A stretch of DNA of 63,802 nt, filler included, from Lenisia limosa (GCA_001655205.1; 16 parts of 16 records of this genome joined end to end with filler, not necessarily neighbours in it); one strand, 5' to 3'. Counted from the first letter of the whole stretch, positions 23,355 through 63,477 are shown. Numbers and translations: made by a program. The notes: generated from the letters alone by a model not told the origin.

Positions 23355-25249
23355 TTATATTGACGAAGCCCCCAATTCTGACGATGGTATGGATCCACCA
23401 AGGCCTGCAAAGGTGTAACGAAAAGTCCATTGAATAAAAAGTTAAAATTGATCTTTTCCACCACATCCTTTTTACAGAACCAGTAATAGAATTTTTTAAA
23501 AGTTATTTGTTTACAGAAGCTATATGGTAGGGAAGAACAGTTTTTCTTTCAGGCAAGCTCATGTGAAGAAAAAGCATGCGTTCATATCATAAAACAGTCT
23601 TATATGTATATTATATGTACTATGTACATATCATACCAATAGAGGTCAAAATCATACTTTCATACAATAGAGATTGAACAATAAGAAAACGGCAGAAGAA
23701 AACAACGGAACACTAAGTGAAAATTGGATAAATGTGGAAAAATGGAGGAACTATGAGGGGCAGAAATATAACCACTGTTTTGGTATATACTGGATACACT
23801 GAGAGTGATAAGTCCCGACACGGATATTGAGCTTTATCTTTAGTTGATCGTGTCAGGATATCAGTGTATTGATTTTTCCAAAACTGACTAGACTTACATA
23901 TCATATAGGTTATGATATGATTGATTTAATATTTTTTTATAAAAGACAAAATACCCACACACCTTCACCAGGAGTGGTCGTACCTGCAACCGGTGTTTGC
24001 GCGGCTGTGATTGTTGACCCTGTATCTCCGGTCGAAAAATGAAAAGCCATCCAAATTACAACCACGATTGCCATAACAGCAAACATAACCTGGGGGGTAG
24101 TGAAGGGGTGTGGAAAATTGGAAAATTTATGAAACAACAACAAATAAAAAGAAGCCAAAATCAACTCTGTTGGCTGACAACACACGAGGATTGAAAACAA
24201 CAAAACTGCAGTCATTTCTGCGGCACAACATCCTATTCAGCGTTTGTAAAATTGGAAAATTTATGAAGCAAAAAACAATGATACCCCCCCACCTTGCACA
24301 TCAGCATAGTGTTTCCTGAAGCGACCATGTCATTCAACTTGCCCATTGTTGACCCCATAATATTGTTTGCGTCAAACCACTTGTTGTCCTAAGCCATAAG
24401 TGGAAAAAGTGGAGCAATACTAAATATAGTAGAGGAAAATTGTATTTCAGTTCAGTTCAGTTCGGTTCATTTCTTCTATTCAAGTTTCGTGGTAACCTAC
24501 CAATTTATCAAGCTCTATGTTGTGGTCATCTATCTCGTTTTTGATGTTGCCAGTTATCTGCAGAGGTGAAATTTAGTAACAGCAGGATTCTTCATTTCGA
24601 TTCAAAAGTCGGTCGCATGATCATATCCCAAGTGGATATGGGTTAACAAACTACCCTTCCATAATACCCAGGGCTTCCTTATGGCCCCAAAAGACTGAAT
24701 TTCTCGATAAATCCTTGATAAGTATCGAGATTTTACCAGTCTTTTTCGGACCGTAGTGAAGCCATATCATACCGATTTGAGGGTGGATATCTGCCCCGCT
24801 AAAAGTGCTTCTCGGTCCTCATTCTCTTTCTCAAACATGGCTGCAGAAATGAGAAATGAAAACCACCCCAAAATAGAATAGTAAAATACCTATTTACATA
24901 TTTAGGATTACAGAGATTATATTAGCGAAAAGATAAAACAAAACTATAAAAGAAAAAGAAGCAAGAACTTTAGAGATGAGAAAACAAAACAAGGTTGTAT
25001 CACCACGCTTATACGAGATATTTAATTAACATAATAATGGCATTGGATATATATGTAGTAAAGATGATGAAGATAAAGCCTCCCCCACTTCTGTTACAAG
25101 TCCTTTGGAAAATCTGAGTTAACTAACAGGGTAATCTATCTTCACTGCCACTCCCCCAGCCCATCATACCCGAGGCATTTTCAGCCATCTTCTTGTCTTC
25201 TCCTGAAAGCTTCTTTCGCTTCCCTCCAAAGAGGCTCTCACGTTTATTC
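23355..25249 (-). CDS. BET1: BET1-like Qc-SNARE with an extended luminal tail; 5' exon(s) unresolved
   Basis: Spliced exons: AMFEKENEDREALLAGQISTLKS|ITGNIKNEIDDHNIELDKL|DNKWFDANNIMGSTMGKLNDMVASGNTMLMCK|VMFAVMAIVVVIWMAFHF(TM)STGDT...PGE|GLGGSIPSSELGASSI* (TAA at 23355-23357). Confidence 0.8.
23797..23866. mobile_element. MITE family D (CACTGA...TCAGTG termini, TA on both flanks) in a BET1 intron
   Basis: TA|CACTGAGAGTGATAAGTCCCGACACGG...CGTGTCAGGATATCAGTG|TA; homologous to 34989-35062 (+) and 48185-48245 (reverse). Confidence 0.75.
24090..24206 (-). repeat. Intron 3'-end repeat family B copy forming the 3' half of a BET1 intron (24090-24292)
   Basis: GTTTTGTTGTTTTCAATCCTCGTGTGTTGTCAGCCAACAGAGTTGATTTTGG...TTTCATAAATTTTCCAATTTT...CCCCCCAG| directly precedes the TM exon. 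Confidence 0.85.
24670..24765. mobile_element. MITE family A copy in a BET1 intron
   Basis: AGGGCTTCCTTATGGCCCCAAAAGACTGAATTTCTCGATAAATCC...TTTTTCGGACCGTAGTGAAGCCA. Confidence 0.8.
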
Positions 25250-25789
25250 CTACATAAATGAAAAAGGTCACTATTAATGGACACCCTCAAGGTCTCAAAA
25301 GAACTGAAACTCTCGATAAATACCAATAATTTCATGGTTTTTTTTTTTATTCAAACGGATAAATTTGTTGCTTGTGAGAAATGCACAAAGTAAGGAGTAT
25401 TGAGCTTTTGTCATTACTCCCCTATGTCCCTTCCAACTTACTACTGCATGCGAGTACCCTAGACCCCCCACATATTAATGCTACTAAATACTTCAAGCTC
25501 TTGGCAGTAGAGATGCAGCTGGCTGTGGCTATACAGTGAATAGGGTAAACTCAATTAATTCGTGAAAAATATCTTTTGTAAAAAAACAAAAGAAAGTATA
25601 TTATATCATATACATTACTAATATTACTAATATTATGACAGTCTTTTTTACAAGAAACAAGGCTTCCCTTCGGCTCGAAAAAGACCGATAAAATAACGAT
25701 AGGTGTCGAAAATTTACCGAGTAATTCAGTCTTTTGTCGAGTCGAAATAACGTAGATATATAAGGCCTCCCTTTGGGTCCTCCCTAATA

Positions 25790-25870
25790 AGCAAAGAGAA
25801 ATAAAAAACAAGGTTGTATCTGGCCGAAGCCGTCCATACCATCACGCTTATAAGAGATATTGGATTATAG
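25790..25870 (-). repeat. Repeat family E, full-length copy
   Basis: The minus strand reads AATATCTCTTATAAGCGTGATGGTATGGACGGCTTCGGCCAGATACAACCTTGTTTTTTATTTCTCTTTGC, then TTATTAG. Confidence 0.8.
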
Positions 25871-60969: not shown

Positions 60970-61517
60970 ATGGCCCAAGGTAGAAGTAGAACTGCCATGC
61001 CAGAGCCACATAAGAAGAAGGTAACAGAGATCACCAGGCCAGGTGGACCTACTCTCGAGTATCCTTGGAGGAGTTTCGACGTCTGTGGCTCAACTTTTAT
61101 GGTTGATGCCCGTTATGAATGTCTTAAGCCTGTCGGAAGAGGAGCTTATGGGTAAGTTGTCTTTGTTTCCTGTTGCTCTTACTTTAAACAGTATCATCTG
61201 TGCTGCCCGTGATGTTAAATTTGCTCAAAAGGTCGCAATCAAAAAAATACCTAACGCATTTGACCGAGCAAGTGAGGCAACCCGCATTCTTCGCGAGGTC
61301 AAACTTCTCCGCCATTTCAGAGTATGAATTTGGGAGGAGAAGTAAATAAAAGAATCTGGGCAGAATTCTCCTTTTGGGTTTGTTTTTCATCTCCTTTTAG
61401 AACCATGACAACATCGTCTCCCTTAAGGACATCATGAAGCCCATCAACCTCCAAGACTTTGTTGACGTGTACTGGGTCACTGACTTGATGGAAACCGATC
61501 TTCATCAGATTATTAAG
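60970..61517 (+). CDS. MAP kinase (ERK-like) N-terminal lobe; downstream exons not found
   Basis: [26 protein letters not shown]...[45 protein letters not shown]...[18 protein letters not shown]. Confidence 0.88.
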
Positions 61518-62409
61518 GTTTGCGGGTTCCAAACTCCTTTTTTTTGTCCAATATGACACACAATTGACTGTTACGGTGTTTATTCGAATCAATAGGCATA
61601 TTGGAGTTGTCGCTAAGCACAATGTTCAGTGGAAAGAAACAATCAGAACTATAATATCCACTGCCCTCATCATATTTGTCATTTCTCACAGATTGAAGTA
61701 ATTCGGAAATACAGCCCATTATATCATGGGGGTGTTTAATTTCGATGATGAGATGATTGAGATGATTGAGATGACCCGACAATACCATTGTGCCGCGGCA
61801 TTAATTGGTTGGGCTTTTGTTTTGTTTTTCAGACCGTATTGTGTGTTTTCAGGCACAGCTTCACTTTTTGTTCTAAACTTGTAGAAATTATTGATGAATA
61901 TTCGTAAAATTTTCGTAAAATATAGACATTATATCCTTCTTAAGAACCAAAAAAGTAAACCACTTTCAAATGGTCAATAATGAAGTACCTTTCTAATATT
62001 TATAACTTAAGTTCCCATTCATCCCACCTATACCAAATCAAGCCATGACTTAGACACTTGTAAAAGGGAATATTTATAGATATTTCCTCAGAAGATCGAT
62101 CGATCTGTAATTGAAATATACATCATGAATATCCCCCACACNNNNNNNNNNNNNNNNNNNNNNNNNNNNNNNNNNNNNNNNNNNNTTAATTAATTAANNN
62201 NNNNNNNNNNNNNNNNNNNNNNNNNNNNNNNNNNNNNNNNNATTATTTTTGGGGTGTTGTGAAAGACTTGGTCCAAATATCAGTGGGATCCCAACGATCT
62301 TTCACTCAAACAAAAAAAAGATGAGGGAACCGAGTAAAATTGAAAAACTTATGTTACAAAGCAAAACTAAAAGCCCAAAACCAACTCCTAAATCACCCGC
62401 TCCCCTCAA

Positions 62410-63477
62410 TAGGACGCAAGAAGGTCTGCGCTCTCTTAACCGACCTGCAAAATTCGGCGTTCCCCCCCTCGCAACACCTCCAAGCCCTCGCTGATGGTAT
62501 GGTTCATTTTACTGTTGTTCTGATTATATGGTTTACTTTAATAGTCCTGATATAATCATAATCCAGTATCTCTTGTAATGGTGATGTGGACGGGGCTTAG
62601 GCCAGTTTGTTTGATTAATAATTTTCCATTTTCGTTGATGGATTTCCTCTCACCCCCCCCCCCCNNNNNNNNNNNNNNNNNNNNNNNNNNNNNNNNNNNN
62701 NNNNNNNNNNNNNNNNNNNNNNNNNNNNNNNNNNNNNNNNNNNNNNNNNNNNNNNNNNNNNNNNNNNNNNNNNNNTACAAAGTTATTTATTTTATTTCTT
62801 TTGACAGATTTGCACTTCTGATTTTGCTGAAACTTTTTTGATAGTGTGGGGACTTTTATTTGCACAGTATTATACTTTAAAAATTAATTAGGACCTTATT
62901 TGTTTGAACATCGGTTACTGGAGGTGTTATCACTGTTAGCACTTTTTAAGAGAAAAACTATTTTGTTGAAACAGGACTTCTTATTTATTTGGGGCTGTTA
63001 ACAGTTTGGTACTTTGTATGTACAGAAAAAGGCTTTTTTTATATAATTAGGATTTGTACCAACTTCACAAATGAGAATGCTGAATATGATACTCTTAATA
63101 GGTCCAAGCAAAACCAAATCTTCTATTTGTTTGAACTTGTTCATTGTTTAGGAGGAGGAACAGGGAGACCCCTTGAATCTCGCATTTTACGCACTCATTG
63201 CGGAAATTAACCCCTCCAGTGGGGTTATGATTACGGGCTTTTTTGTTGTTGTTGTTGTGACATAAGTTTTCGAATTTCAACCCCCCCCCCCNNNNNNNNN
63301 NNNNNNNNNNNNNNNNNNNNNNNNNNNNNNNNNNNNNNNNNNNNNNNNNNNNNNNNNNNNNNNNNNNNNNNNNNNNNNNNNNNNNNNNNTGTTTCATAAG
63401 TTTTCCAATTTTACCCCCCCCCCCCAGATTCAGCTCTTGGTGCATGGGGCCAAATTCTCTCAGACAAACCTGGACAA
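62410..63477 (+). CDS. Fragment of an uncharacterised alpha-helical (HEAT-like?) protein
   Basis: Short AG/GT-bounded exons GRKKVCALLTDLQNSAFPPSQHLQALAD, FALLILLKLFD, EEEQGDPLNLAFYALIAEINP and IQLLVHGAKFSQTNLDK. Confidence 0.35.

What the first reader, a model, noticed from the sequence alone, without database searches (positions are those of the whole stretch)
24090..63427. Family B: a sense-oriented ~100-nt repeat that forms intron 3' ends and sometimes a whole GT..AG intron (introner candidate)
Seen: consensus GTTTTGTTGTTTTCAACCCTCGTGTGTTGTCAGCCAACAGAGTTGATTTTGGGCTTTTTTGTTTCATAAATTTTCCAATTTTAC-C(n)-AG. Full or partial copies occur at 21897, 24090 (-), 24245 (-), 27405, 28510, 28620, 29291, 31810, 33514, 34541, 41475/41648, 44130, 45760, 48948 (-) and 63391. 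In the genes I could orient it lies on the sense strand (45760 and 21897 are unresolved). It ends at or shortly before the acceptor of a coding exon in BET1 (24090), the Cys-rich gene (41677), the coiled-coil gene (44229/44233) and at 34625, 48948 and 63427. At 48948-49055 and 44130-44233 it fills essentially the whole predicted intron. Two copies share the upstream flank GACTGGCCT (44119-44127; 49057-49065 minus) and a third shares GACTG, so the element may extend 5' of my donor call. There is no long TIR, unlike the orientation-neutral MITEs. Established: introners are TEs that generate introns carrying their own splice signals. Inference: an intron-generating or splice-site-donating element family, possibly undescribed in this lineage.
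Basis: partly seen in the sequence, partly recalled or inferred. Interest (0 to 1): 0.78.

Follow-up and report, generated by a model that had tools for sequence, protein, structure and literature searches.

The report
Repeat stacking at intron acceptor sites
A roughly 155-letter repeat, present in likely about ten thousand copies in the anaerobic protist Lenisia limosa, sits and stacks up at the far end of introns that likely existed before it; it does not form whole new introns where this could be tested, and it may be copied there from excised intron RNA.

Summary
The repeat is real: 8 core matches against 0.01 expected, and roughly 10^4 copies by read depth and window density. The window is 16 joined scaffolds of the breviate Lenisia limosa. 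B is about 155 nt, not 100. It lies sense at 13 of 14 loci (mostly strand calls by eye) and ends at a branch-point-like TTTAC abutting a C-tract.

The 'whole intron' claim fails. No pair of B introns passes the published introner end test (0 of 6 at the 5' end). One B intron shares position and phase with a B-free intron of the neighbouring protein repeat.

What stands out is head-to-tail stacking: at 8 of 14 loci a B or related family-C copy follows another, with variable 5' truncation. Best reading: a non-autonomous, likely RNA-copied element that enters existing introns at the acceptor. Orthologous intron positions and a reverse-transcriptase partner were not found or tested.

The parts
48948..49166 (-). 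219-nt GT..AG intron: 19 unique nt, a diverged B 3' fragment (49110-49147), an internal pyrimidine+AG (64 nt from the donor), then a 155-nt B unit with C-tract and AG
   Evidence: RNA contig pieces and depth arithmetic; reading frame
49167..49208 (-). 42-nt exon upstream of the B intron
   Evidence: inferred from RNA bin depths and a loose end at 49210
48858..48947 (-). 90-nt exon directly after the B acceptor
   Evidence: RNA contig 9, record positions 140-229
24090..24292 (-). 203-nt phase-0 intron of the BET1-like gene: G-run donor, B 3' fragment (24247-24277), near full B (about 24113-24245), C-rich acceptor
   Evidence: sequence and frames; splicing inferred; BET1 name is by recalled pattern and was not confirmed
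41418..41677 (+). 260-nt phase-0 intron of the Ephrin_rec_like repeat gene: about 60 unique nt, B 3' fragment (41480-41516), full B from 41518 across the gap to the acceptor
   Evidence: gap content from the translation of P0061; splicing inferred
41291..41366 (+). 76-nt B-free intron at the same repeat position and phase as the B intron next to it
   Evidence: splicing inferred from frame
63219..63427 (+). Inferred intron: G-run donor, B 3' fragment + C11, 98-nt gap, B 3' end + C12 + AG (an exon inside the gap is not excluded)
44105..44233 (+). C-run followed by a B copy that starts at its internal CAG; scaffold edge; ends at acceptor 44229/44233
21895..21963 (+). B 3' fragment followed directly by the 5' part of another B; scaffold end
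27360..27463 (+). Diverged 5'-truncated B + C13, then gap
28501..28688 (+). Two B copies head to tail (28501-28609; 28620-28674) + C14, then gap
29289..29344 (+). 5'-truncated B, 38 nt before an AG
33509..33589 (+). 5'-truncated B running into a gap, just after a family-A element
34542..34625 (+). 5'-truncated B ending 14 nt before an AG
45743..45882 (+). 5'-truncated B (to 45819) followed about 20 nt later by family C (45840-45882), same strand; sense by flanking exons read by eye
59540..59602 (-). Family C 3' end joined directly to the 5' part of B; scaffold end
62326..62387 (-). Diverged B, probably antisense to a plus-strand gene (the one exception; strand call uncertain)
28807..28874 (-). 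Family C copy, antisense, whose C-tract side abuts a donor G-run at about 28801
   Evidence: gene strand by eye, no RNA cover

Best explanation
Family B is a roughly 155-nt repeat, in likely about 10^4 copies, that sits at the acceptor end of introns and stacks there head to tail; it is likely a non-autonomous mobile element that entered introns which already existed, likely by reverse transcription of intron RNA primed at the C-rich acceptor tract. Shown: the repeat, its fixed 3' end beside a C-tract, its variable 5' ends, the stacking, one spliced B intron, and no known RNA family or stable fold. Inferred: (1) B RNA comes from spliced-out introns, whose 3' end is C-tract+AG; (2) a broken G-run on the template strand of another intron pairs with that tract and primes cDNA, which stops at variable points; (3) the copy brings a TTTAC branch-point-like motif, so splicing survives and the intron only lengthens; (4) the reverse transcriptase comes from an unidentified element.
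For: Fixed 3' end at TTTAC plus C-tract in the window. Genome-wide, the majority loose end of 111 contigs there continues into a G-run on the + strand. 5' ends vary. At 8 of 14 loci a copy follows another on the same strand: 6 B-B, 1 C-B, 1 B-C; none was seen nested. Six further B-to-B go-back joints at different points appear among the printed DNA rows (15 of 124 and 12 of 92 rows shown). In the RNA-tested intron, the first 64 nt form a complete GT..AG unit of ordinary size and the 155-nt B follows its AG; malic-enzyme introns span 43-222 nt. The ephrin-gene B intron matches a B-free neighbour in position and phase. Long C-runs exist without B or C: 14 of 20 runs of 10+ with a visible upstream flank. 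A family-C copy lies antisense against a donor G-run, as C-run targeting predicts. B is scarce in poly(A) RNA: summed depth at most about 100, against 2-4x10^5 in DNA. An 11-nt inverted copy carrying the element's own minority variant sits at the 5' junction of the S9 unit (one case).
Against: No reverse transcriptase or other partner was seen: none among the ORF translations read by eye, and only 13 peptides were scanned with Pfam. No empty site, polymorphism or clear target-site duplication was found. Only one B intron has RNA support; scaffold S4 was not covered. Orientation is not significantly stronger than for family A (p=0.10). An independent skew test gave B 11 of 14 (p=0.057) and A 15 of 20, and it miscalled 2 of 7 calibration genes. 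In short introns any tolerated insertion lies near both ends. One copy is probably antisense and away from a donor G-run. The upstream copy is not always the older one (28501 is closer to the majority than 28620).
Confidence: 0.45

Rival explanations
1. B is an ordinary non-autonomous transposon that inserts with little site preference; selection keeps only copies that are sense-oriented and placed where their T-rich body and TTTAC can serve as branch point and pyrimidine tract, as antisense Alu elements supply acceptors (recalled).
For: Introns are short, so survivors are necessarily near acceptors. Antisense B would read as a strong donor. Family A is also partly sense-biased. One antisense B exists. 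B is absent from the 19.8-kb scaffold S1 that holds eIF3b and malic enzyme.
Against: It does not predict head-to-tail joints exactly at the previous copy's 3' end at 8 of 14 loci, including B-C and C-B pairs, with none nested, nor the varied go-back joints in DNA.
Confidence: 0.3
2. B is a true introner: the full unit is a whole intron from a GTACG-type donor to C-tract+AG that creates new introns in exons, and the window shows only nested or merged remnants, as in Micromonas.
For: The majority 5' boundary falls at or near GTACG (loose end at 49090, 83 contigs, agreement 0.48), and GTACGC is a used donor in the malic-enzyme gene. 3' ends pass the end test in 3 of 6 pairs. Young copies break this assembly (gaps at 41546, 63292, 33590). 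Nested and merged introners are reported in Micromonas (PMC3879977, passages).
Against: 0 of 4 two-ended introns and none of the other loci start with B's own 5' end at an exon border. The GT at 49054 is a minority variant. The majority flank beyond the 5' boundary is T-rich in sense, with no AG before the GT. One B intron shares its position with a B-free paralogous intron.
Confidence: 0.13
3. The tandem pattern comes from local duplication or gene conversion between intron 3' ends of the same gene, acting on an older dispersed repeat.
For: All three S16 copies share one variant and two share another; two S4 copies share a shortened end.
Against: Copies within a scaffold are not closer than copies between scaffolds (0.249 against 0.270, permutation p=0.23). 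C-B and B-C joints and about 10^4 copies need dispersal.
Confidence: 0.07
4. B is a functional intron-encoded RNA or splicing element kept by selection, such as a snoRNA-like unit near the acceptor.
For: Sense orientation and position near acceptors resemble intronic snoRNAs (recalled).
Against: No Rfam match at gathering level; only sub-threshold hits at E 0.11-6.2; no tRNA; folding z-scores +1.98 and -0.44; copies are truncated and decayed.
Confidence: 0.05

Closest known systems
Introners as defined by Gozashti et al. 2022 (PMC9860276; outline, sections 8 and 15, passages, supplement search and part 1 read) and 2025 (PMC12130899; passages, supplements searched)
   Same: Repeated intron sequence, non-autonomous, 3' similarity reaching the acceptor.
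   Different: Similarity does not reach the donor in any pair tested. This is the 'secondary insertion into pre-existing introns' pattern that their pipeline removes. Lenisia occurs once in the 2022 supplement, in the genome list, and not in the introner tables held (file cut when stored); it has no hit in the 2025 text or 14 supplements.
Micromonas Introner Elements and their remnants (PMC3879977, PMC4540971; passages only)
   Same: Coding-strand orientation, no TIR needed, proposed spread through intron RNA, nested or merged copies and remnants inside old introns.
   Different: In Micromonas whole-intron copies dominate and remnants are a minority (463 IE-A-like repeats). Here every resolvable copy is inside a longer intron, has a fixed 3' end and is stacked at the acceptor.
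Endonuclease-deficient Penelope-like elements / Terminons (PMC6431247; passages only)
   Same: 5'-truncated head-to-tail arrays; a C-rich RNA 3' end that pairs with G-rich DNA to prime copying is the mechanism proposed here by analogy.
   Different: Those are kilobase elements coding an RT, carry a hammerhead ribozyme and attach to telomeres. B is about 155 nt, non-coding, has no Rfam ribozyme match and sits in introns.
SINEs such as Alu stacking in older tails and supplying acceptors when antisense (recalled, no call)
   Same: High copy number, strand bias in introns, stacking, supply of 3' splice signals.
   Different: No tRNA-like head found, no poly(A) tail at the fixed end, and the tail or target is a C-tract.
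TIR MITEs (family A in this window)
   Same: Short, non-coding, intronic, abundant.
   Different: Family A matches itself on both strands; B has no family-wide terminal inverted repeat.

Membership tests
Introner (Gozashti 2022) | Similarity between introns starts within 10 intronic nt of the 5' boundary in both introns | tested here: not met
   0 of 6 pairs among 4 two-ended B introns (criterion); only 1 of the 4 introns has RNA support
Introner (Gozashti 2022) | Similarity reaches within 10 nt of the 3' boundary in both introns | tested here: inconclusive
   3 of 6 pairs pass, partly through C-runs
Introner (Gozashti 2022) | At least four such introns in non-paralogous genes | tested here: not met
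   none passes both ends in this window; the genome was not available
Introner | Containing intron is spliced with canonical ends | tested here: met
   48948-49166 GT..AG by RNA contig and depth; one case
Introner | Intron position absent in orthologs (new intron) | not testable with these tools
   no BET1 relatives recovered; paralogous-repeat proxy points to an old position
Introner | Presence/absence polymorphism or empty site | tested here: inconclusive
   no clean skip among printed DNA joints; one DNA run, most rows not shown
TIR DNA transposon / MITE | Terminal inverted repeats | tested here: not met
   only one inverted repeat in the S9 unit, which includes a minority variant
Non-LTR retroposon (SINE-like) | Fixed 3' end with simple tail and variable 5' truncation | tested here: met
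   the tail is C-rich and may be host target
Non-LTR retroposon (SINE-like) | Pol III-derived head (tRNA, 5S, 7SL) | tested here: not met
   no ARAGORN or Rfam match
Non-LTR retroposon (SINE-like) | Target-site duplications | tested here: inconclusive
   by eye only: C-run+AG on both sides at 44105-44229; a degenerate ~22-nt repeat around 29289
Non-LTR retroposon (SINE-like) | Autonomous RT partner sharing the 3' end | not testable with these tools
   no genome held; none noticed in window ORFs
Penelope-like / retrozyme | Hammerhead ribozyme | tested here: not met
   no Rfam match; no stable fold
Helitron / Helentron | Subterminal hairpin and conserved termini (features recalled) | tested here: not met
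   two B introns fold no better than shuffles; termini judged by eye

The most novel reading that the evidence does not exclude
B and family C are 'acceptor-homing' retroposons: whole spliceosomal introns whose excised RNA, with ends made by the host spliceosome, is reverse-transcribed into the C-tract or AG of other introns. They need no promoter or poly(A) tail, replace the branch point and acceptor of thousands of old introns, and would create a new intron whenever a full-length copy lands in an exon. This would be direct genomic evidence that spliceosomal intron RNA is retrotransposed.
Probability: 0.25. Interest if true: 0.82.

Novelty: new variant of a known kind. Interest (0 to 1): 0.5.

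Why it matters
Whether spliceosomal intron RNA can spread itself is an open question: RNA routes have been proposed for Micromonas and fungal introners, but most introners look DNA-based (PMC9860276 section 8; PMC4540971 passages). An element with about 10^4 copies, a fixed end at the branch point and acceptor, and many dated-in-order tandem junctions would make the RNA route testable in one genome. It would also show a way for mobile DNA to rewrite splice signals of old introns, a class that introner screens discard by design. If selection alone explains it, it is an ordinary undescribed repeat of a poorly sampled lineage near the root of animals and fungi (placement recalled).

Tried and rejected
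No whole genome is held for this window, so no genome-wide orientation or position test was possible. Exact B motifs gave 0 hits in metagenome contigs, viral contigs and prokaryote genomes: no relatives found. Earlier scan notes: nothing by place or by sequence. RNA did not cover scaffold S4 apart from 34 nt at its end; this is no evidence about its splicing. The BET1 ortholog test failed: no candidates, one unrelated-looking 610-aa hit, no Pfam or PDB match on single exons. The ephrin-exon search returned only an unspliced ORF, useful for the gap. T/A skew as an independent strand caller was unreliable (2 of 7 calibration genes wrong). Local copying was not supported overall (p=0.23). snoRNA, tRNA, ribozyme and stable-fold readings were rejected. 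An LTR/TRIM reading was rejected because the upstream unit varies from about 30 to 110 nt and can be family C. A single circular template was rejected because junctions differ. 31810 was dropped before counting loci (E 2.8), as were nhmmer rows with E above 0.2 and the row at 48266 (E 0.13). Literature searches found no description of this repeat or mechanism: Lenisia+intron, 6 papers, 5 listed; breviate+TE+introns, 5; Lenisia limosa+repeat, 11; mechanism terms, 0, 5 and 0. These were seen as listings only, and subscription papers are not covered. The introduction of PMC11282704 (part 1 of 5) was read and added nothing specific.
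Full report
Setting. The window is 16 scaffolds of 1.1-19.9 kb joined by a fixed 100-nt spacer, with 5,303 N. A malic-enzyme exon matches a EukProt protein at 100%, listed as Lenisia limosa, a breviate. That spliced protein maps onto the window; the printed gaps between exons run from 43 to 222 nt, end GT..AG, and carry loose branch-point-like motifs shortly before the AG, read by eye. No whole genome is held. One DNA run (X1) and one poly(A) RNA run (X2) hold the sequence; X1 may be the source of the assembly.

Observation. An nhmmer model seeded with seven copies finds 15 of the 16 listed positions; 31810 is doubtful. Four more copies turn up at 49110, 59540, 62326 and 63228. Two 20-mers match 8 and 9 times against 0.01 and 0.06 expected. 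Grouping neighbours gives 14 loci, none in scaffold S1. Summed DNA depth over B is 2.4-3.3x10^5, peak 4.4x10^5, against about 14-42 for unique contigs. The tool warns that this is no copy number. Taken roughly it gives 13,000-18,000, and window density times the 49.0-Mb assembly size gives about 11,700.

Anatomy. B is longer than reported. In DNA contigs the majority continues past 49090 for about 11 more letters to a boundary at or near GTACG, then turns T-rich in sense (83 contigs, agreement 0.48). The unit is about 155 nt. Its 3' end is TTTAC or a close variant, then a C-tract: C fraction 0.74 against 0.20 after family-A ends, and an AG 7-38 nt on in the 7 sense copies not cut by a gap. No family-wide TIR, no Rfam or tRNA match, no stable fold.

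The whole-intron claim. RNA contig 9 holds exons 48010-48075, 48339-48411 and 48858-48947. Bin depths of 6.18 and 13.2 match a further exon at 49167-49208/10 exactly; the piece itself was not printed. The intron is 48948-49166, 219 nt, and the joined exons are in frame. At 49054, 422,021 of 439,202 DNA depth reads C, so the family has GG where this copy has GT. At 44130 the 'exon' is internal B sequence at a scaffold edge. By the published criterion, 0 of 6 pairs of two-ended B introns pass at the 5' end and 3 of 6 at the 3' end.

Old or new introns. The BET1 ortholog test failed, and the BET1 label rests on a recalled SNARE-plus-TM pattern. A proxy exists in the Ephrin_rec_like gene: the B intron 41418-41677 and the B-free 76-nt intron 41291-41366 both fall in phase 0 before D-x-x-G-Q-x-x-C of successive, diverged repeats. 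In the S9 intron the first 64 nt are a complete GT..AG unit and the 155-nt B follows its AG. Both point to insertion into existing introns; each is a single case.

Orientation. By my strand calls B is sense at 13 of 14 loci (p=0.002) and family A at 13 of 20; the contrast is not significant (p=0.10). Only S9 (RNA) and S7 (Pfam) have tool-based strand support. A skew-based check gave 11 of 14 and 15 of 20 and was unreliable. S4 had no RNA cover. B is scarce in poly(A) RNA: 27 records laid on the stretch and depth at most about 100.

Stacking. At 6 of 14 loci a B follows the 3' end of another B. At 59563/59540 B follows a family-C end directly, and at 45743/45840 C follows B. At 44105 B begins at its internal CAG right after a C-run. 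Family C (6 copies) ends in a similar motif, and one copy lies antisense against a donor G-run. Six B-to-B go-back joints at different points appear in the printed DNA rows (most rows not shown). Long C-runs are common without either family: 14 of 20 with visible flanks. Neighbouring copies are not closer relatives (p=0.23).

Mechanism. A fixed 3' end on a simple tract, variable 5' ends and head-to-tail stacking are the pattern of target-primed reverse transcription (established knowledge, recalled). The C-rich end pairing with G-rich DNA has a precedent in Terminons (PMC6431247, passages). Because B lies sense in introns, excised intron RNA would supply a template ending in C-tract+AG. I put this at 0.45, with no partner enzyme, empty site or clear duplication in hand. 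Random insertion plus selection is 0.30; a true introner seen only through remnants, as in Micromonas (PMC3879977), is 0.13; local copying 0.07; a functional RNA 0.05.

Novelty. Lenisia is in the genome list of the 2022 introner survey but not in its introner tables as held, and is absent from the 2025 survey text and supplements. Six searches found no description. It is not filed as an introner, since a defining feature was tested and not met. It works like an introner remnant or SINE that supplies 3' splice signals. Verdict: real, undescribed, new variant of a known kind, interest 0.5.

Noticed in passing
window 10440-10498(-), 10711-10770(-), 28807-28874(-), 41075-41131(+), 45840-45882(+), 59563-59602(-): Family C: a second T-rich intronic repeat with a 3' end resembling B's; 5 of 6 sense by eye, the sixth antisense against a donor G-run.
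   Followed up: partly
window, e.g. 24284-24292, 34710, 35503, 40975, 43070, 48850 (donors); 14930, 21311, 35815, 43260, 49864, 62653 (acceptors): Many introns have a G-run just after GT and a C-run just before AG. In the BET1-like intron the two ends pair as an 8-bp stem. These runs border many assembly gaps. An older TIR-type introner or an end-pairing splicing aid is untested.
   Followed up: partly
window, 20 loci from 2056 to 63786: Family A, a ~100-nt inverted-repeat MITE-like element, often in the 5' or middle part of introns.
   Followed up: partly
window 23779-23870, 26825-26925, 32111-32205, 45174-45275, 48087-48185: Another short inverted-repeat family (D20); summed DNA depth about 48,000 at 48086-48158.
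   Followed up: no
window 49090-49103 and 48972-48982 (-): An 11-nt perfect inverted repeat links the 5' junction of the S9 B unit with its own 3' part and includes a minority variant; looks like a fold-back templated insertion.
   Followed up: partly
window 43059-43975: In the Ephrin_rec_like gene three inferred introns fall in phase 1 of the same glycine of successive repeats; one holds a 24-nt tandem array and one a family-A element.
   Followed up: partly
window 19854-19953 and 14 further sites: Scaffolds are joined by a 100-nt spacer (44 N, a 12-nt stop linker, 44 N); gene order across spacers has no meaning.
   Followed up: yes
window 400-19150, 30439-30966(-), 51488-51847, 61025-61520: Host genes: WNK-like kinase and eIF3b-like (by eye), malic enzyme, a C2H2-type zinc-finger ORF, an AAA_12 helicase piece and a MAPK-like kinase (weak for the kinase).
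   Followed up: partly
window 48948-49166(-): This intron is a multiple of three and stop-free in frame, so retention would escape nonsense decay.
   Followed up: no
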